DNA from: Thermodesulfobacteriota bacterium
GTDB lineage: Bacteria; Desulfobacterota; Desulfarculia; JACQYL01
Direction: 5' to 3'
NCBI GenBank assembly: GCA_963675595.2
Contig: CAXXLZ010000002.1
Span: forward strand, 1,728,001-1,792,000
DNA: 64,000 nt
Each line of letters begins with the position of its first letter. The stretch's first letter is position 1. This document shows positions 5,597 to 53,433 of this stretch, one piece after another. A program made the position numbers and the translations under genes. Under the pieces are notes generated by a model. The model did no database searches and was not told where the DNA came from. It worked only from the letters and a program-made list of their open reading frames with translations.

Positions 5597-5746
5597 CAGG
5601 CCGTTGAAAAACGCGATCTGCGGCGTTGCGCTTCATCCCTCGTCACTGCGACGTACTCTATGTGCCTCTCATTCCTCGGGATTTGCGCGCCTTGCATGTC
5701 ATCGTTTTTCATCAACCTGTGGCAACCGGCTCTTTTCAACGGGCTG
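5597..5746. mobile_element. MITE-like element copy 1 (150 bp, TIRs, 4-bp target duplication)
   Basis: TIRs CAGGCCGTTGAAAA / TTTTCAACGGGCTG (1 mismatch), flanked on both sides by TTGA (5593-5596, 5747-5750); homologous to 49987-50134 and 11967-12197. Confidence 0.8.
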
Positions 5747-47226: not shown

Positions 47227-49818
47227 TTGAGGATCGCTTTGCTCAGGACGTCGGACAGCTTTGTCATCCACGAACTTGCCAAAGCGGTCCGGAGCCGAGG
47301 GCACACTCTCAGGGAAATTCATTTCGACACCCGAAAAGAGGCCGGCCAGGAATGGGTATTATACGACTATCGCAAGTTTCTGGATGAGGTTTTCACTTTC
47401 AAACCCCAGCTGGTGCTGTCTCTGAACCACCGCGGGCTCAACGACCACGGCGGAAAGATATCACGACTCCTGTCCTTGCTGAAAATCCCCATGTTCTCAT
47501 GGCACCTGGATAGTCCTTTCTGGAATCTGGAACCCATCCTTCTTACGGACAGCCCCTACCTCACGGTATTCTGTTTCGATCGCTCATACACCGAGCCCTT
47601 AGCGCACCTCCTGAAAGAAGCCGATGTGGCTTATCTGCCCAACGCCACGGACCCCGACCTTTTCAAGCCTCTTCCGAAAAAGCATCGAGATCGCTTCGAC
47701 CTCACTTTTGTCGGAAGTCTATGTCTGAAGACCTTCCGCAAGTTGGCCGGAAAGACGCTGGGTGTTCCACGCGATCGATTTACGGAGGTGGAGTCCTTCC
47801 TCGATGAAAATCTGGAAGCCTCGTTCTCCCTGCCCGAGTTGGCCACCAAGGCCCGAGATCGGTTTCCCGACGCCCCGCAGGACCCGGACCAGGACGCCGT
47901 GTGCCGGCTGGCGGACGAATACGAAGCCTATCGATATCGGGCACGCGCCATCACCCAGTTGCGCGACCTCAGCCTCCGTGTTTACGGTTTCGACGACTGG
48001 CTCGAAATCGTCGACCCGGAACAATTTGGCGGATGGGCCGAATATTATTCCGATCTTCCCGGTATCTACGGTTCTTCCCGAATCAATCTCAATCTATCTC
48101 GCCCGCAAGTTCGTGCGGGTCTCAATCAGCGTTTCTTCGACGTTCCGGCCGCCGAAGGCTTTTTATTGACGGATTTCCGTGAAGGGCTTCTGGAAGTATT
48201 TCCGGAAGAAGGGGAGATCGCCGTCTTTCGGGGGGAGGAAGACCTGAAACGTCAGGTCGAATGGTTTCTGTCTCATCCCGAACACCGGACACGCATGGCC
48301 AAACGAGCCCGAGAGCGGGTACTCGAAGGCCACACGTACGCACACCGAATCGACGAAATGGAACGGCACTTCAAGACGTTGGGGCCCCTCCTCAAAGGAA
48401 GGGACTTCTCCTACCTCCTGCGGTTCTGGCGTGAGGACCGGGGATTCGCCGAATCCTGTCGTATGCTGGGCCAGTTCCTTTTTCACGCCGGTGACTTCCG
48501 AGGGGGCCGTTTTCTATACGAGCAACTCGATCGGATGGGAAAGGCCGACGGCGAGGTATGGCTGCGGCTCGGGGCCATCGCTTCGAGCGAGGGAGACGTT
48601 GAGACCAGCGAGGCCTACCTGTGCCGATGCTTCGACACGGATCCGGACAGCGCCGTAGCACACTCCGTGGCCGGCGTTAACGCCGAGAAGCTGGGACATT
48701 CCGCTGAAGCGCTGGCCCATTTCCGCCGATCCATCGACCTGGGCAACGCCGACCCCAATGTGCCGAATCGAGCCGCAGCCTTAAGAGAGAAACTGCAGCC
48801 GCCCATTGCCGTTGATCCTTCCCGGCCCGGTATCGCTTTTGCGCTGGATCAGGCAAACCTGCCGTTCGGCGGCGTTCGGGTAATCCTTGAATACGTTGAC
48901 CGCCTCGCCGAACGAGGGTACCGGGTCTTTCTCCTCACCCGCCGTCCCCAGTACTCGGACTGGTTTCCCCTGCGGGTGCCCGTCGTTCCCAAGGAGCATT
49001 GGGAACAAACGTTGAACGACGTCGAAGCCGTTGTTTTCAGCCAGCATGAGCTGTACAACCACATCCCCGCACGGCACGGGCTGAAGCGCATTTTCCTGGC
49101 TCAGCACTTCTTTTCCGACGCCGGGGACCAAACACGGGCGCACCGTACCTTTTCCGATCTGTCCGTCACGCTGGTTTCCGTCTCCCGTCATGTGCGGGAC
49201 GCCGTCGAAAGCGAGATGAACCGATCATCGTTGCTGATTCACAGCGGAGTCAACCGGGATCTGTTTCATCCCAGACCTGAACTTAAGCGTGTCGCCTCCG
49301 GACCGAAAATTCTTTTCTGCTATTCCGCCAATCCCCTCAAAGGAGCGGAGCACGGCATGGAGGTCATGAAGCGGATCAAGGAGGACCAGCCGAACGTTCA
49401 GCTCCGAATGTTCGGTTTCGGGCTGAGGCCCAAAGCGGAGTTCGACTTCGAATATTTCAGATTGCCGGAGCAGGAAGCGCTCGCCCGTTTGTACGCGGAT
49501 TCCGATGTATTTCTGTCCACGTCCCGCAGCGAAGGATTCGGCCTGCCTTGTTTGGAGGCCATGGCTTCGGGTTGCGCCGTGGTTTCCACGCGCAACGGCG
49601 GCAACGCCGATTTTTGCGTACACGGAGAAAACGCTCTTCTGTGCGACTACGGAGATACGGATGAGATGGCGCGTCTTGCCGCCGGGCTACTTTACGACGC
49701 GGACCTTCAAGCAAGACTCACCGAGCGCGGCCTTGAGACCGCCCTTCGATTCTCATGGGACCGGAGCGTGGACCGCATGGAAGAAGTGTGTACGTCCGCC
49801 CACCCCTCCGACGGTTGA
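47227..49818 (+). CDS. Multidomain glycosyltransferase (CgeB/DUF3880-like + TPR + GT4)
   Basis: SRINLN, NQRFFDVPA..GFLLTD, HTY.HR; TPR middle; GG.R, EGFGLPCLEAMASG; TTG start with GGGAG RBS. Confidence 0.85.
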   Translation: MRIALLRTSDSFVIHELAKAVRSRGHTLREIHFDTRKEAGQEWVLYDYRKFLDEVFTFKPQLVLSLNHRGLNDHGGKISRLLSLLKIPMFSWHLDSPFWNLEPILLTDSPYLTVFCFDRSYTEPLAHLLKEADVAYLPNATDPDLFKPLPKKHRDRFDLTFVGSLCLKTFRKLAGKTLGVPRDRFTEVESFLDENLEASFSLPELATKARDRFPDAPQDPDQDAVCRLADEYEAYRYRARAITQLRDLSLRVYGFDDWLEIVDPEQFGGWAEYYSDLPGIYGSSRINLNLSRPQVRAGLNQRFFDVPAAEGFLLTDFREGLLEVFPEEGEIAVFRGEEDLKRQVEWFLSHPEHRTRMAKRARERVLEGHTYAHRIDEMERHFKTLGPLLKGRDFSYLLRFWREDRGFAESCRMLGQFLFHAGDFRGGRFLYEQLDRMGKADGEVWLRLGAIASSEGDVETSEAYLCRCFDTDPDSAVAHSVAGVNAEKLGHSAEALAHFRRSIDLGNADPNVPNRAAALREKLQPPIAVDPSRPGIAFALDQANLPFGGVRVILEYVDRLAERGYRVFLLTRRPQYSDWFPLRVPVVPKEHWEQTLNDVEAVVFSQHELYNHIPARHGLKRIFLAQHFFSDAGDQTRAHRTFSDLSVTLVSVSRHVRDAVESEMNRSSLLIHSGVNRDLFHPRPELKRVASGPKILFCYSANPLKGAEHGMEVMKRIKEDQPNVQLRMFGFGLRPKAEFDFEYFRLPEQEALARLYADSDVFLSTSRSEGFGLPCLEAMASGCAVVSTRNGGNADFCVHGENALLCDYGDTDEMARLAAGLLYDADLQARLTERGLETALRFSWDRSVDRMEEVCTSAHPSDG

Positions 49819-49986
49819 TACCCTGCGATCTTCATTTGCCCGGTTTCGCATTCCGGAAGATCGATTTTTTGCGACCACAAAGCCGGCTTCGATTTGGAGA
49901 GCCTTACGTAGGCCGACCCGGAGGCTTCATAGCCTCCTTGGAAAGGGAGGCCGAAACCCTCCGGAGCGGTCTTACGGCCTCTGCAA

Positions 49987-50134
49987 CAATCCGTTGAAAA
50001 AGGCCGTTTCGCAGGTTGGTGAAAGTCGAGACATGTCGAATGTGCCGATCCCGAGGACTCAAGGCGCACGTTGCGTACGTCCCGCCGACAAATGAGGAAG
50101 CGTAACGCCGCGGATCGCGTTTTTCACCAGCCTG
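49987..50134. mobile_element. MITE-like element copy 2 (148 bp, inverted relative to copy 1)
   Basis: CAATCCGTTGAAAAAGG...GATCGCGTTTTTCACCAGCCTG; colinear with the reverse complement of 5597-5746. Confidence 0.78.
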
Positions 50135-50212
50135 ATGATATGGCTGCACACGTCAATAGGGCGCAGAATTCTTCCGCCCCTTGTAACGTTGGGGTATGGC
50201 TACCATTTATGG

Positions 50213-50411
50213 AACTTCAACCTGCGGACAGAGGCGGAACCTGCATAGCGACGGTGGATCATGCTGATATTCGCGGGTTGGTTACCGCCGGACTTGGTTC
50301 GTCGCGGAGCTGCCTCTTTCTAGAGACGAGGGTTCGGCAGATGCCAGATCTCCTATCAGGTCACGAGGATTCTCCTTACCGCGGTTGCGCCCCTGCTCAC
50401 AGGTTGAAGCC
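50213..50411 (-). ncRNA. Putative bridge RNA/seekRNA of the IS110 element
   Basis: Long closing helix (CTTCAACCTGTG..GGGGCGCAACC with GGTTCCGCCTC..CGCAGGTTGAAG); contains CCTGATAG (target match) and ATATCAG (circle-junction match); boundaries approximate. Confidence 0.7.
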
Positions 50412-50475
50412 GGTGTTTTTCCCTTTTACAGTGCCGTCCTCCTTCCAAATCGAACGATATGGTGTTGATGTGAGG

Positions 50476-51582
50476 CTAAGCGGCAACGGGAACCTCTCTG
50501 GCGATCGCCCACAGAAAGGCGGCCATCTCCCTTGCAATGGCCGTGACGGCCACTTGCGACGGCTTACCCCGGGCCATCAGCCGGTGGTACCGGCCGCACA
50601 GACGCAGCTGGGCCTTCCAGCCGATCTTGCAGACCTCGGACGGCGCCTCCTCCCGCCGATCCCTCAGCCTGCGGCCCACTCGGGGCGGATAGCGATAGGT
50701 CCAGGCCCCCTGGATCAATACCCGGCGCGCATGTCCGTTGCCGGACTTGGTAATGCCTCCTTGTTTGCGCCGTCCTCCGCTGGAACTCTCCGAGGGGACC
50801 AAACCCAGATACGCCGTCAACTGCCCGGGCTCATCAAATCGCGTCATGTCGCCCACTTCGGCCACCACAGTGACGGCCACGATCAACGACACGCCTCGCA
50901 TCGATTGGAAGGCCTCCACGACCGGTTTCATAGGCCAGTGCTCCACCTGCTCGCCAATCTGCTCCACCAATCGCGCCACCCGGCGCTCGCACTCTTCAAT
51001 GGTGTCGATATACTCCTGAAAAACGATCTGCTGGGCCGGGTGTTCAAACGACTGGTCCGAAAGCCACCTCCGGTGGGCCCGGCTCCACTTCCGCGGCCCG
51101 CCGTACTTCCGACCGTGGCGCAGCAAAAAGGCGTTGAGCCGCTGTTTGGCCTTTCGCTCCGAGCTCTTGGCATCCTCCCGGGCCCTGGTCAAATCCCGTA
51201 TCGCCTCGTCCTCCACACGGGGAACATACACCCCCGTGAGTTCTCCAGCCCGATGAAGACGAGCCAGGGTGACCGCATCCCGTCGATCCGTCTTGATCCG
51301 ATCGCCGGCTCGTCGGGGCGTCAGCGAGGGCGCCACGACCGTGCAATGGATTCCCCGGGCATGCAGGTGCCGGCAAAGAACGTAGCCGCATGGGCCGGCT
51401 TCGTAGACCACCCGAAGCCGATCCTTCTTGTAGCCCAGCCGGCGAATCAATCGATCCACATCCGACGGCTCCCCGTTGATCTTGCCGTAAGATCGGACTT
51501 CTCCATCACGGGACCCTTCGGCCAGGGCAACGTCTATCGATTTCTGGTGAACATCCAATCCAACAAAGATAAAATCGGTCAT
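50476..51582 (-). CDS. IS110-family transposase/recombinase (368 aa)
   Basis: RuvC-like DEDD (GLDVH, VYEAG, KTDRRDA); C-terminal Tnp domain AYLGLVPSESSSG, ITKSGN; RBS AAGGAGG. Confidence 0.96.
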   Translation of the reverse strand: MTDFIFVGLDVHQKSIDVALAEGSRDGEVRSYGKINGEPSDVDRLIRRLGYKKDRLRVVYEAGPCGYVLCRHLHARGIHCTVVAPSLTPRRAGDRIKTDRRDAVTLARLHRAGELTGVYVPRVEDEAIRDLTRAREDAKSSERKAKQRLNAFLLRHGRKYGGPRKWSRAHRRWLSDQSFEHPAQQIVFQEYIDTIEECERRVARLVEQIGEQVEHWPMKPVVEAFQSMRGVSLIVAVTVVAEVGDMTRFDEPGQLTAYLGLVPSESSSGGRRKQGGITKSGNGHARRVLIQGAWTYRYPPRVGRRLRDRREEAPSEVCKIGWKAQLRLCGRYHRLMARGKPSQVAVTAIAREMAAFLWAIAREVPVAA

Positions 51583-51721
51583 GGCCTGCCTCCTTGGTGT
51601 TGGTTCTGTGGGCGTGCTGATTACTCGCACCATAACCCAACAACGCAGGAGATGGGCCTACTTTCCTGCACGTGCAGCCATTATGTCTAGCCTCGTCACG
51701 GCAAAGAAACCTTCACCAGCG

Positions 51722-52186
51722 CTACTTGGTTGCCGCCGCCGCTTCCCGACGATCCAGTCGGGAAAGCACACGGCCGGAGACTTCCATTGCCAGGTAAAGG
51801 ACCAGAAGCACCATGAAGACGCCGAAAAACCGCAAGACCAGCGTTCCTAGAATCCAGGTCCAGCGGTCGCCGGTGATGACCACCTTGACCGTTCCCGAAT
51901 CCCCTTCGATCAACCTGATGGAATGCCATGGCCGCGAACTCTGGTCCTCAATCAGTGTCTTTCCATTGCGCTCGCGGAATTTAACGTCTTGCTCGTTTTC
52001 CAAGACCTTCCGATAGAAATTCACGGCTTGGTCCATGCTCATTTCATAGGTGGCCGTCACACGATCTTCACTCCGAATCACGTCCTTCCCTCCTTCCATC
52101 ATTGGAACACCGAGGAAATCCTCTCCAAAGGACGCCTGTGAGCAAAGGAGCAGGGACAGCAAAACAAGAGACATGACTGTTTTCAT
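51722..52186 (-). CDS. Exported protein with C-terminal TM helix, possible OadG/gamma-like subunit (154 aa)
   Basis: Signal peptide MKTVMSLVLLSLLLCSQASFG; C-terminal RFFGVFMVLLVLYLAM resembles OadG TM; downstream of the decarboxylase beta gene. Confidence 0.6.
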   Translation of the reverse strand: MKTVMSLVLLSLLLCSQASFGEDFLGVPMMEGGKDVIRSEDRVTATYEMSMDQAVNFYRKVLENEQDVKFRERNGKTLIEDQSSRPWHSIRLIEGDSGTVKVVITGDRWTWILGTLVLRFFGVFMVLLVLYLAMEVSGRVLSRLDRREAAAATK

Positions 52187-52278
52187 AGCGATATTCCCGT
52201 TATGTGTAACCTCGTCGTCATTGCATGTACGCATACGCAAGTCTTCGGATCCGACACTTTCGGAATCCGGGGAACCGA

Positions 52279-53433
52279 TTAATCGAACATGGCGATAAAC
52301 ATCCCCGCCGCCGCCGCTGAGCCGATGACTCCGGCCAAGTTCGGTCCCATTGCGTGCATCAGAAGGTGGTTCTTCCTGTCGTACTCGAGCCCGACGAGTT
52401 CCGAAACGCGAGCGGACATGGGGACCGCAGAAACTCCCGCCGACCCGATCAACGGATTGATCTTCTCCTTGAGAAACAGGTTCATGATCTTTACCGTCAA
52501 TATCCCGCCGGCGGTGCATACGGCGAAGTCCAGCAAACCGAGAGAAAAAATCAGCAAGGGTTTCGGGCTCAAGAACGTATGCGCGTTCATGGTGGCTCCC
52601 ACGGACAGTCCCAGAAAGATGGTGACGATGTTCATGAGTGCGCCCTGCGCCGTCTCCGTCAGTCTCCCAACAACCCCGCTCTCCTTCATCAGGTTGCCCA
52701 GCATGAACATCCCCATGAGAGGAATGACGGAGGGCACCAAGACCGCGATGATGCCGCAGGCCACCAGGGGATAGAGAATCTTCTCCCTGGTCGAGACCCT
52801 GCGGAGTTGCCTCATGCGGATCTTGCGCTCTTCGGGATTGGTCAGAAGCTTCATGATGGGCGGCTGAATCAGCGGCACCATGGCCATGTAGGAATAGGCG
52901 GCCAAGGCGTTGGCCCCAAGAAGCTGAGGCGCCAGGTGCTGGGTGAGATAGATGGTCGTGGGACCGTCGGCTCCGCCGATGATGCCCACGGAAGCAGCCT
53001 CTTTCAGGGTGAACCCTGCGAGGATGGTTCCGCTGAAGGTGATGAATACCCCCAGCTGCGCGCCGGCTCCCACGATGAGCGTTTTGGGATTTGCGATTAA
53101 AGGACCGAAGTCCGTCATGGCGCCCAATCCCAGAAAAATTACGCAGGGAATGATCTCCCACTCGAGACCGTAATGGTAGATCGCCCGGATGAGTTCGGGC
53201 TGCCCTCCGTGGGCATATCCCATCAGGGGAACCAGAGGGAAATTCACCACAAAGATGCCGAAGCCGATGGGCAACAGCAGTAGGGGTTCAAAGTTCTTGG
53301 CAATGGCCAGATAGATGAAAAATCCGGCGATCACCCACATAACGACGGGCTGCCAACTCAGGTTCCATAACCCGGTGGTGTAGAAGATGCCCCACAACAT
53401 GTCGACAATGTCGTTCCATTCCATGGTCTTCAT
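52279..53433 (-). CDS. oadB: Na+-translocating decarboxylase beta subunit (OadB/GcdB/MmdB)
   Basis: [67 protein letters not shown]. Confidence 0.93.

What the first reader, a model, noticed from the sequence alone, without database searches (positions are those of the whole stretch)
50213..50411. Putative bridge/seekRNA with readable target and donor guides downstream of the recombinase
Seen: the minus-strand non-coding region is closed by a long helix. It contains CCTGATAG (+50353-50360), identical to the reconstructed empty target CCTGAT|AG, and ATATCAG (+50264-50270), identical to the reconstructed circle junction ATATC|AG. Both matches span junctions that are not contiguous in the integrated state. 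A further CCTCGTC (+50325-50331) equals the adjacent flank 51691-51697 but may be scaffold coincidence. Known: IS110 recombinases (RuvC DEDD plus catalytic Ser, here the ESSSG loop) use such RNAs. Inference: a compact programmable recombinase with an apparent 1-nt core and a 3'-encoded RNA. The matches are short, so chance is not excluded.
Basis: partly seen in the sequence, partly recalled or inferred. Interest (0 to 1): 0.85.

Follow-up and report, generated by a model that had tools for sequence, protein, structure and literature searches.

The report
IS1111-type insertion sequence with guide RNA
This is a mobile DNA element of a known kind whose recombinase is steered by a small RNA encoded just behind its gene, and the short RNA stretches that read the insertion site and the element's own ends can be picked out and change in step with their DNA partners in related elements.

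Summary
The region lies in the 3' non-coding part of a 1,552-bp IS110-family insertion sequence on the minus strand (window 50137-51688). It has IS1111-type architecture: subterminal inverted repeats, 7-nt and 3-nt terminal extensions, and the non-coding region downstream of the transposase gene. The genome holds 5 copies at 97-100% identity.

A covariance model built from homologues found the same ~200-nt RNA behind 82 of 82 related transposase genes tested, from many phyla. 92.8% of pair cells are paired and 43 of 52 pairs show compensatory changes.

Three guide segments covary with DNA:
- RNA CCUGAU (window 50355-50360) pairs with the top strand of the right flank. 53 of 74 cognate pairs have at least 6 contiguous pairs, against 37 of 5,334 non-cognate pairs.
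- RNA CUAGA (50319-50323) equals the left flank-left end junction.
- RNA AUAUCAG (50264-50270) equals the right end-left end circle junction and changes where the end changes.

One genomic copy carries a one-base guide change that matches its one-base different site. The third match, CCTCGTC, is coincidence.

This is a seekRNA/bridge RNA system of the published kind, so a new member and not a new mechanism. RNA expression could not be tested.

The parts
50137..51688 (-). Insertion sequence, 1,552 bp by the IS1111 convention (7-nt left and 3-nt right extension beyond the inverted repeats). The A at 50136 or 51688 is shared with the target, so the ends can be shifted by 1 nt.
   Evidence: 5 copies in the genome at 97-100% identity lose similarity at these points. 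Public contigs break at 51690 and at 50128-50138.
50476..51582 (-). Transposase gene (368 aa, P0001; start MTDFIFVGLDVH, preceded by AAGGAGG). It contains the motif GLVPSESSSG.
   Evidence: PF01548 (1.3e-16) and PF02371 (3.5e-22). NF033542, 276 bits against a cut-off of 140. Invariant residues D10, E61, D99, D102, S267 and G269 across 9 homologues.
51669..51681 (-). Left subterminal inverted repeat ATGGCTGCACGTG, preceded by the 7-nt extension AGACATA (51682-51688).
   Evidence: Read. It matches the right repeat at 11 of 13 positions, the first 10 perfectly.
50140..50152 (-). Right subterminal inverted repeat (minus strand CGTGTGCAGCCAT), followed by the 3-nt extension ATC (50137-50139).
50151..50156 (-). 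-35 hexamer TTGACG of the promoter that forms only when the ends are joined. With the -10 CATAAT at 51680-51685 the spacer is 17 nt across the circle junction.
   Evidence: Read. TTGAC is conserved in the right end of most homologues. No sigma-70-like site lies on the minus strand of the integrated element.
51680..51685 (-). -10 hexamer CATAAT of the junction promoter.
   Evidence: As above.
50211..50413 (-). The whole structured RNA (203 nt; RNA position p corresponds to window 50414-p).
   Evidence: Covariance model R1 scores 202.3 bits here.
50383..50410 (-). 5' arm of the closing helix. The 3' arm lies at about 50213-50240.
   Evidence: 26 of 26 pairs of this helix show changes on both sides; 90.7% of cells are paired.
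50306..50375 (-). Target-binding module (RNA 39-108). The stems GGAG/CUCC and CCUC/GAGG enclose both target guides and a small hairpin (50336-50345).
   Evidence: Helices 2-4 are 90-99.7% paired, with compensatory changes.
50355..50360 (-). Right-target guide CCUGAU (RNA 54-59). It pairs with the top strand of the shared A plus right-flank bases 1-5 (A TCAGG).
   Evidence: Right-flank positions 1-5 covary with five successive columns as top-strand pairing: observed 0.75-0.89 against expected 0.38-0.73, z 6.6-8.6. 53 of 74 cognate pairs against 37 of 5,334 non-cognate pairs have at least 6 contiguous pairs.
50319..50323 (-). Left-target guide CUAGA (RNA 91-95). It equals the top strand of left-flank bases -2 and -1, the shared A and the first two element bases GA, so it would pair with the bottom strand.
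   Evidence: Left-flank positions -1, -2 and -3 covary with RNA columns 92, 91 and 90 as identity: observed 0.97, 0.88 and 0.70 against expected 0.73, 0.57 and 0.39, z 9.7, 8.0 and 6.2. At least 3 flank bases match in 34 of 67 cognate pairs against 7.7% of 4,346 non-cognate pairs.
50248..50305 (-). Donor-binding module (RNA 109-166). The stem GCGACG/CGUCGC encloses a multiloop with the hairpin GCGG...CCGC.
   Evidence: Helices 5 and 6 are 94.6% and 99.4% paired.
50264..50270 (-). Left-donor guide AUAUCAG (RNA 144-150). It equals the right end ATATC, the shared A and the first left-end base G, which is the circle junction.
   Evidence: The last three right-end bases covary with RNA 148-146 as identity: 0.87 against 0.60-0.75, z 6.8-7.5. 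Five end types (ATATC, ATACC, ATGAG, ATAGA, and ATAAG in ISEc45) each have the matching RNA.
50291..50295 (-). Candidate right-donor guide AAGUC (RNA 119-123), complementary to left-end bases GACAT at 4 of 5 positions. This assignment is tentative.
   Evidence: GUC goes with GAC ends, AUC with GAT ends (4 of 5 such elements) and GGUC with GACC ends. Left-end position 4 against RNA position 120 gives z 5.4. The signal is confounded by relatedness, and several clades do not fit.
50000..50135 (+). Copy of a dispersed repeat of about 125-136 nt whose outer end (...GCGTTTTTCAACAGCCTGN) is the insertion site.
   Evidence: 36 further partial matches in the genome. 85 BLAST hits to this stretch.

Best explanation
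Window 50137-51688 (minus strand) is an active or recently active insertion sequence of the IS110 family with IS1111-type architecture.

Proposed mechanism:
- Its DEDD/serine transposase is guided by a ~200-nt RNA encoded directly downstream of the gene.
- The RNA folds into a long closing helix carrying two modules.
- In the target module, CCUGAU pairs with the top strand of the shared A plus five right-flank bases. CUAGA pairs with the bottom strand of the last left-flank bases plus the A. Its last two bases match the element's own left end, a handshake-like extension.
- In the donor module, AUAUCAG pairs with the bottom strand of the joined right end-left end in the excised circle. AAGUC probably pairs with the top strand of the left end.
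- Excision joins the ends through the single shared A and creates a TTGACG-17 nt-CATAAT promoter. That promoter would drive the transposase gene and, by read-through, the RNA.
- The RNA-protein complex then inserts the circle at sites reading ...(C)TA|NCAGG, which in this genome lie at the outer end of a dispersed repeat.

Shown here: the element's limits and copies, the RNA fold with compensatory changes, the guide-target and guide-donor covariation, and the junction promoter geometry.

Inferred from published relatives: that the RNA is made and processed, that it binds the transposase, that a circle forms, and the order of strand exchange.
For: - Five copies at 97-100% identity with open 368-aa frames.
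- Sharp ends with no duplication beyond one shared A.
- Pfam and NCBIfam membership.
- The RNA was found behind related transposase genes in 93 of 104 loci by nhmmer and in 82 of 82 chosen loci by the covariance model at E <= 1e-12.
- Structure: 92.8% of 4,178 cells are paired, against 38-44% when partners are slid. 43 of 52 pairs have changes on both sides. 0 of 500 shuffles reach any measure.
- G-U pairs are common where 'other' pairs are rare, for example G-U 22 and other 0 at columns 22/306. So the transposase-sense strand is the one that folds.
- Guide-flank covariation lies on clean diagonals, and the cognate versus non-cognate contrast is strong.
- The donor guide changes with the end type.
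- Natural retargeting inside this genome: copy c5 has CCUGUU instead of CCUGAU, and its site has A instead of T at right-flank base 1. Both RNA haplotypes are also seen in public contigs.
- Geometry and guide order (top-strand match 5' of the bottom-strand match, the two overlapping in the target) fit the description of IS1111 seekRNAs in PMC11187229 (sections read).
Against: - No RNA evidence. No RNA run holds the sequence, which says nothing either way.
- No Rfam family matched.
- 2 of the 5 genomic copies sit in imperfect sites. c4 mismatches its own right-target guide at right-flank bases 1 and 5 and its left-target guide at position -2. c3 mismatches at right-flank base 5.
- c5's left-target guide change (C to G) does not match its own flank.
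- 21 of 74 elements have fewer than 6 contiguous Watson-Crick pairs. Some of these pair through G-U, and a few fit poorly, such as L059, L062 and L028.
- Ten elements of one subclade carry AUCAGAG against an end reading ATGAG-A-G or ATAAG-A-G, one mismatch or more.
- Donor covariation rests on a few end types that follow clades, and unrelated columns reach z 5-6 for end positions.
- The genome has 130 CCTGATAG sites but only 5 copies, all beside CAGSCTG. Something beyond the readable guides may contribute to site choice.
- The transposase is only 26% identical to IS4321 over residues 72-296.
Confidence: 0.9

Rival explanations
1. The conserved 3' region acts as DNA, not RNA. It would be a set of transposase-binding sites or a single-stranded DNA fold at the right end that guides site choice, as in IS200/IS605 elements.
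For: The region lies inside the element next to the right end. Covariation counts cannot distinguish an RNA from a single DNA strand of the same sense. No RNA data exist.
Against: The fold lies 75-277 nt from the end, not at it. The protein is an IS110-family DEDD/serine enzyme. For this family the non-coding-region RNA has been shown to co-purify with the enzyme and to work in trans (PMC11187229, sections read). It has also been seen in cryo-EM structures (PMC11208158, passages).
Confidence: 0.04
2. The RNA is real, but this genome's copies are domesticated or dead. The guide matches are then relics, with no current movement.
For: There are only 5 copies although 130 CCTGATAG sites exist. No contig with an empty site or a circle junction was seen.
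Against: All five frames are open and 98.9-100% identical. Copies sit at five different sites. One copy has a guide change that fits its own site. Contigs cannot show rare forms (note).
Confidence: 0.05
3. The region is an ordinary 3' UTR structure (stability element or terminator), and the short matches to target and ends are chance.
For: The matches in this single copy are only 6-8 nt. No terminator-like or promoter-like site was called nearby.
Against: The joint chance of the two strings is 7.5e-5 in shuffles. The matches move with the flanks in 53 of 74 elements against 0.7% of mismatched pairings.
Confidence: 0.01

Closest known systems
seekRNAs of IS1111-family elements ISEc11, ISPa11 and ISKpn4 (Siddiquee et al. 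2024, PMC11187229; Results and Introduction passages read)
   Same: - RNA encoded downstream of the transposase gene.
- Subterminal inverted repeats with 7-nt and 3-nt extensions, and no target duplication.
- A top-strand match lies 5' of a bottom-strand match, and the two overlap in the target.
- A promoter forms at the circle junction.
- Natural retargeting by guide replacement.
- A repeat as target (ISPa11 targets REP).
- The target module here is 70 nt, close to the 82-96-nt peak seekRNAs. The whole RNA is about 200 nt, against the 154-nt long form.
   Different: The transposase is longer (368 aa against the 330-350 aa quoted for the family). It is only distantly related to the one canonical member I could compare (IS4321, 26%). 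I could not compare sequences or folds with ISEc11, ISPa11 or ISKpn4, because figures and supplements are not held.
IS621 bridge RNA (Durrant et al. 2024, PMC11208160; Hiraizumi et al. 2024, PMC11208158; passages read)
   Same: - Two modules, one for the target and one for the donor.
- In each module one guide pairs with the bottom strand of the left half and one with the top strand of the right half.
- There are extra handshake-like bases.
- The enzyme is a DEDD plus serine recombinase.
   Different: - The RNA lies at the 3' end, not the 5' end.
- The order of the two target guides is reversed.
- The donor guides sit in a multiloop. Durrant et al. note this for many IS1111 members.
- Only one base (A) is shared between target and donor, where IS621 has a CT dinucleotide.
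- The handshake-like bases follow the bottom-strand guide.
ISEc45 (name as annotated on E. coli plasmid NZ_CP096978.1)
   Same: - It is the closest named transposase: 48% identity over 357 residues.
- Model R1 finds the homologous RNA just behind its gene (35.2 bits, E 5e-10).
- Its right end CATAAG-A is matched by RNA AUAAGAG, and it has 9-10-bp subterminal repeats.
   Different: It has a different host and different ends and guides. I found no paper describing its RNA. The one search for the name returned 12 papers; the 10 listed are resistance and genome surveys by title, and none was read.
IS4321/IS5075 (IS1111 group; they target the terminal repeats of Tn21-family transposons; title cited in PMC11208160, paper not held)
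   Same: They also insert at a fixed point at the end of another repeated element.
   Different: 26% identity over part of the protein. Model R1 finds nothing behind the IS4321 gene (best 6 bits).
ISPpu9 of Pseudomonas putida (PMC12288879; passages read)
   Same: An IS110-family element in repeated extragenic sequences, with a small RNA gene downstream in some copies and circular intermediates.
   Different: ISPpu9 belongs to the IS110 group, without inverted repeats. It recombines at an AG dinucleotide and forms no junction promoter. Its downstream Ssr9 RNA is not needed for transposition.

Membership tests
IS110 family RNA-guided transposase | N-terminal DEDD (RuvC-like) domain and C-terminal Transposase_20 domain | tested here: met
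   PF01548 at 61.2 bits (cut-off 29) and PF02371 at 79 bits (cut-off 21.3). NF033542 at 276.2 bits (cut-off 140).
IS110 family RNA-guided transposase | Conserved acidic residues and the G(L)-P----S/T-G loop | tested here: met
   D10, E61, D99, D102 and G260-L261-x-P263...S267...G269 are invariant in 9 homologues. The sequence is GLVPSESSSG. The motif is as quoted in PMC11187229. The catalytic role is taken from the literature and was not tested.
IS1111 group | Subterminal inverted repeats, usually 11-13 bp, perfect or nearly so | tested here: met
   ATGGCTGCACGTG against ATGGCTGCACACG, 11 of 13 with the first 10 perfect. The same layout is seen in homologues.
IS1111 group | Asymmetric terminal extensions, 7 bp left and 3 bp right | tested here: met
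   AGACATA before the left repeat and ATC after the right repeat, when the shared A is assigned once. The rule is as stated in PMC11187229.
IS1111 group | Long non-coding region downstream of the transposase gene | tested here: met
   About 340 nt lie between the stop codon and the right end, against about 106 nt upstream.
IS1111 group | No target duplication and sequence-specific insertion | tested here: met
   5 of 5 copies show no repeat of flank bases beyond one A, and all sit at ...TA|NCAGSC.
IS1111 group | Transposase related over its full length to that of IS1111 | tested here: inconclusive
   Only IS4321 was at hand: 26% identity over residues 72-296, E 8e-14. The length is 368 aa against the quoted 330-350 aa. 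No tree with named references was built.
seekRNA / bridge RNA | Guide segments that covary with the target flanks on both strands | tested here: met
   (figures are given under parts).
seekRNA / bridge RNA | Guide segments that match the donor (joined ends) | tested here: met
   AUAUCAG and four other end types are each matched. A second donor guide is only tentative. The signal is confounded by relatedness.
seekRNA / bridge RNA | Conserved secondary structure presenting the guides in loops | tested here: met
   The guides lie in unpaired stretches between helices 3/4 and within helix 5.
seekRNA / bridge RNA | The RNA is expressed, binds the transposase and is required for movement | not testable with these tools
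   No RNA run holds the sequence.
Rfam families | A match to a curated RNA family | tested here: not met
   Only two chance-level hits (E 2.5 and 5.7) in window 49500-52300 with permissive filters.

The most novel reading that the evidence does not exclude
The ISEc45-like clade, to which this element belongs, may use a recombination geometry distinct from IS621. Target and donor would share a single base rather than a dinucleotide. The handshake-like bases would sit on the bottom-strand guide (the constant GA after the left-flank guide). A weak extra signal links right-flank base 2 to the base just 3' of the donor guide (z 5.6). If that holds, the strand-exchange register, and therefore the rules for reprogramming, would differ from the solved system. 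This clade offers a compact 368-aa enzyme with fully readable guides, found across many phyla.
Probability: 0.25. Interest if true: 0.55.

Novelty: new member of a known kind. Interest (0 to 1): 0.35.

Why it matters
RNA-guided IS110/IS1111 recombinases are being developed as programmable tools for inserting DNA. Most structural and rule-finding work rests on IS621 and a few relatives.

This element adds a well-delimited natural example of the less studied 3'-RNA type. It has exact ends, five copies, and a one-base natural retargeting event. It also comes with an 82-member alignment that shows which RNA positions read which DNA positions.

For the biology of the host, it explains why the element sits at the ends of a dispersed repeat. 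It does not change what is known about the mechanism.

Tried and rejected
- **Rfam**: no meaningful match.
- **First scan of genome contigs with the single protein**: 82 pattern matches, none confirmed. I repeated it with a 9-protein alignment.
- **First version of the covariation script**: timed out without output. A faster version ran.
- **Automatic end-finding.** It first misplaced the right end of the window's own copies and several left ends. I tightened the rules and dropped two false left ends (L076, L116) before counting.
- **Helix 7 of the consensus fold** (AUCA/UGAU inside the donor guide). It is poorly supported, with 11-17 of 82 cells unpaired in three of its four pairs and changes on both sides in only one pair. 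I read it as guide rather than helix.
- **CCTCGTC as a third guide.** Rejected.
- **Extension of the target guide into the left flank** (the AG of the 8-mer). The RNA base stays A where the flank base is not T in 4 of 6 such elements I looked at by eye, and it fits in 2 (L069, L115). This comes from the and 43 listings and is not a formal count.
- **RNA expression.** No RNA holder was listed.
- **Laying public contigs**. No contig spans an empty site or a circle junction, and there was no cover at 51723-52227. This is not evidence either way.
- **Partridge & Hall 2003** is not held. Its statements are cited only through PMC11187229.
- **Supplementary files** of the three main papers were not opened. 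They are closed, and they hold the trees, seekRNA folds and bridge RNA tables that would settle the subgroup placement and whether this clade was already modelled.
- **Not attempted:** structure prediction, complex prediction, and a named-reference tree.

**Rows left out of the 82-locus model search, from the 104 loci L021-L124:**
- L038, L041 and L043: RNA identical to the window copy.
- L039, L057 and L032: near-duplicates.
- L029, L081, L097, L108 and L103: cut or partial.
- L036 and L037: weak.
- L030, L031, L034, L035, L072, L078, L092, L093 and L104: no nhmmer hit. Several of these contigs end before the region.

Full report
**What is there**

The finding lies on the minus strand, downstream of an open frame at 50476-51633. 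The likely start is the ATG at 51582, behind AAGGAGG, which gives a 368-aa protein (P0001). The protein has both IS110 domains (PF01548 and PF02371). It scores 276 bits on NCBIfam NF033542, 'IS110 family RNA-guided transposase'.

The region folds into a long closing helix: -83.8 kcal/mol, z -4.7, and 0 of 200 shuffles fold as well.

**Limits of the element**

A search of the window's own genome with window 50000-51800 found five full-length copies at 97-100% identity. It also found 36 short matches to the first ~140 bases of the query.

Aligning the five copies with their flanks shows that similarity starts and stops sharply. In the orientation of the gene the element reads flank-T|AGACATA-ATGGCTGCACGTG ... 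CGTGTGCAGCCAT-ATC|A-flank. The two junctions share only a single A, and no flank bases are duplicated.

The subterminal inverted repeats match at 11 of 13 positions. The 7-nt left and 3-nt right extensions are the geometry given for the IS1111 family in PMC11187229. The 340-nt non-coding region lies downstream of the gene.

When the ends are joined through the A, TTGACG in the right end and CATAAT in the left end come to lie 17 nt apart. No sigma-70-like site is called on the minus strand of the integrated element.

**The insertion site**

The DNA beside the right end (window 50000-50135) is a copy of a dispersed repeat, with 85 BLAST hits in the genome. Its outer end reads ...GCGTTTTTCAACAGCCTGN on the + strand and is often followed by TA. 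Four of the five copies sit at the end of such a repeat, and the fifth (c3) sits beside a partial one.

In element orientation the five sites are:

| Copy | Site |
|---|---|
| window | GGCTA\|TCAGGCTG |
| c2 | CCCTA\|TCAGGCTG |
| c3 | CCCTA\|TCAGCCTG |
| c4 | CTGTA\|GCAGCCCG |
| c5 | TTTTA\|ACAGGCTG |

**Relatives**

- A protein search of 401 genomes sampled from the same phylum gave 17 genomes with a match at E <= 1e-40, counting the window's own.
- A scan of one genome per species with a 9-protein alignment gave 581 confirmed relatives among 590 pattern matches. The best 80 were kept. They are 52-67% identical and come from many phyla by their record titles.
- The downstream regions align with the window's, with conserved blocks separated by variable stretches.
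- An HMM of 11 such regions (A2) hit 93 of 104 loci.
- A covariance model (R1) matched 82 of 82 chosen loci at E <= 1e-12 over its full length. The 22 loci left out are listed under Tried and rejected.

**The fold**

On the 82-row alignment, 92.8% of 4,178 pair cells are standard pairs, against 38-44% with partners slid by 1-3 columns. 43 of 52 pairs have changes on both sides, and no shuffle out of 500 reaches any of the five measures. The alignment was fitted to the model, which favours the structure, but the margin is large.

The closing helix has 26 of 26 pairs with compensatory changes. Inside it are two modules:
- RNA 39-108 (GGAG/CUCC and CCUC/GAGG stems, a large loop and a small hairpin).
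- RNA 109-166 (GCGACG/CGUCGC stem, a multiloop with one hairpin).

G-U pairs are frequent at positions with no unpaired cells, so the sense strand is the one that folds. Rfam has no family for it.

**Guides for the target**

I located the right end in 78 rows and the left end in 69 rows, of which 67 remained after dropping two false ones. I then scored every RNA column against every flank and end position, for pairing with the top or the bottom DNA strand.

The strongest signals form two clean diagonals.
- Right-flank bases 1-5 pair as top strand with five successive columns: observed 0.75-0.89, expected 0.38-0.73, z 6.6-8.6. Base 6 is weaker, at z 4.8.
- Left-flank bases -1, -2 and -3 equal three successive columns, which means bottom-strand pairing: 0.97, 0.88 and 0.70 against 0.73, 0.57 and 0.39, z 9.7, 8.0 and 6.2.
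- Flank positions further out give nothing above z 3.8.

In the window's RNA the first guide is CCUGAU (RNA 54-59, window 50355-50360). The table is shifted by one position for this row, because the window's RNA has UAGG where most have UAUGG. The second guide is CUAGA (RNA 91-95, window 50319-50323). There C and U equal flank bases -2 and -1, A is the shared base, and GA equals the first two bases of the element.

In an alignment-free count, 53 of 74 elements have at least 6 contiguous Watson-Crick pairs starting at the shared base. That compares with 37 of 5,334 non-cognate pairings. At least 3 left-flank bases match in 34 of 67 elements, against 7.7% of 4,346 non-cognate pairings.

The top-strand guide lies 5' of the bottom-strand guide and the two overlap at the shared base. 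PMC11187229 describes the same arrangement for IS1111 seekRNAs.

**Guides for the donor**

AUAUCAG (RNA 144-150) equals right end ATATC + A + first left-end base G, which is the circle junction. It is constant where the end is constant and changes with it:

| Right end type | RNA | Elements |
|---|---|---|
| ATACC | AUACCAG | L064, L079 |
| ATGAG | AUGAGAG | 14 elements |
| ATAGA | AUAGAAG | L040 |
| ATAAG | AUAAGAG | ISEc45 |

Ten elements of one subclade have AUCAGAG against ATGAG or ATAAG ends (one mismatch or more), and L087 has one mismatch. The three variable end positions score 0.87 identity against 0.60-0.75 expected (z 6.8-7.5). However, end types follow clades, and unrelated columns reach z 5-6, so this is weaker evidence than for the target.

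A second donor guide is likely at RNA 119-123 (AAGUC against left-end GACAT). GUC goes with GAC ends, AUC with GAT ends in 4 of 5 such elements, and GGUC with GACC ends. Left-end base 4 against RNA 120 gives z 5.4. Several clades do not fit, so I call it tentative.

**Within this genome**

Four copies carry the same RNA. Copy c5 differs at several positions, including the right-target guide (CCUGUU). Its site has A where the others have T, so guide and site still pair.
- The window copy, c2 and c5 pair at all 6 positions.
- c3 fails at right-flank base 5.
- c4 fails at bases 1 and 5, and at position -2 of the left guide.
- c5's left-guide change (C to G) does not fit its own flank, but it fits c4's flank (TCTGTA|GA) perfectly.
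- c4 and c5 share other variants near the right end. This suggests action in trans or exchange between copies, which I did not follow up.

Public contigs from two studies hold the element with both RNA haplotypes, and they break at its ends.

**What it is**

It is a seekRNA/bridge RNA system of the type described in 2024, in an element with all the architectural marks of the IS1111 group.

The transposase is 48% identical over its full length to the one annotated ISEc45, whose downstream region is hit by R1. It is only 26% identical over part of its length to IS4321, where R1 finds nothing. Placement by protein tree was not done.

Durrant et al. report predicted bridge RNAs in 93% of IS1111 members. 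They note donor-binding bases in a multiloop for many of them, which is what is seen here. I therefore rate it a new member of a known kind.

**Open points**
- Whether the RNA is made.
- Whether one base or two are exchanged.
- The second donor guide.
- Why only repeat-associated sites are used, although 130 copies of the 8-mer exist in the genome.

Noticed in passing
window 50000-50135; also window 5597-5719 and about 80 other places in the genome: There is a dispersed repeat of about 125-136 nt whose two ends look like inverted copies of CAGGCTGTTGAAAAACG. Homologous elements in other phyla are also flanked by CAGSCTGYTGAAAAA-like sequence (L119, L085, L096, L107, L046, L087, L094). It may be a widespread small repeat or MITE family serving as landing site.
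   Followed up: partly
genome copies c4 (C2:4106349-4107921) and c5 (C2:4494743-4496383): c4's left flank fits the c5-type left guide (8 of 8) better than its own. c4 shares right-end variants with c5 but left-end variants with the window copy. This hints at guidance in trans or recombination between copies.
   Followed up: partly
RNA position 151 (window 50263) against right-flank base 2: A secondary covariation signal as identity (0.49 against 0.26, z 5.6) sits just 3' of the donor guide. It could be a handshake position reading the target, or an effect of relatedness: one clade targets A|ACGTT and carries CAGCA.
   Followed up: no
L064:2625-2979 (Halomonas sp. HK25 chromosome): The right end is followed at once by a second, partial copy of the RNA gene, beginning inside its left-guide region (two hits). 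It looks like one copy inserted into the guide-encoding DNA of another. That DNA mimics a flank-TA-GAC junction.
   Followed up: no
window 51583-51668 (5' untranslated part of the left end): A block resembling CCTTGCAAACGTGGGTTA and the ribosome-binding stretch CCAAGGAGGCAGG are conserved among homologues. This may be a regulatory structure of the transposase mRNA.
   Followed up: no
window 49910-49972: A GC-rich hairpin between the upstream gene and the repeat gave a chance-level Rfam hit (mir-879, E 2.5). It is probably a terminator-like stem of the neighbouring gene.
   Followed up: no
L104 (record titled Candidatus Bathyarchaeota archaeon MAG): A 57%-identical transposase is listed in an archaeal bin, with no RNA hit. 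It could be binning contamination or a real transfer.
   Followed up: no
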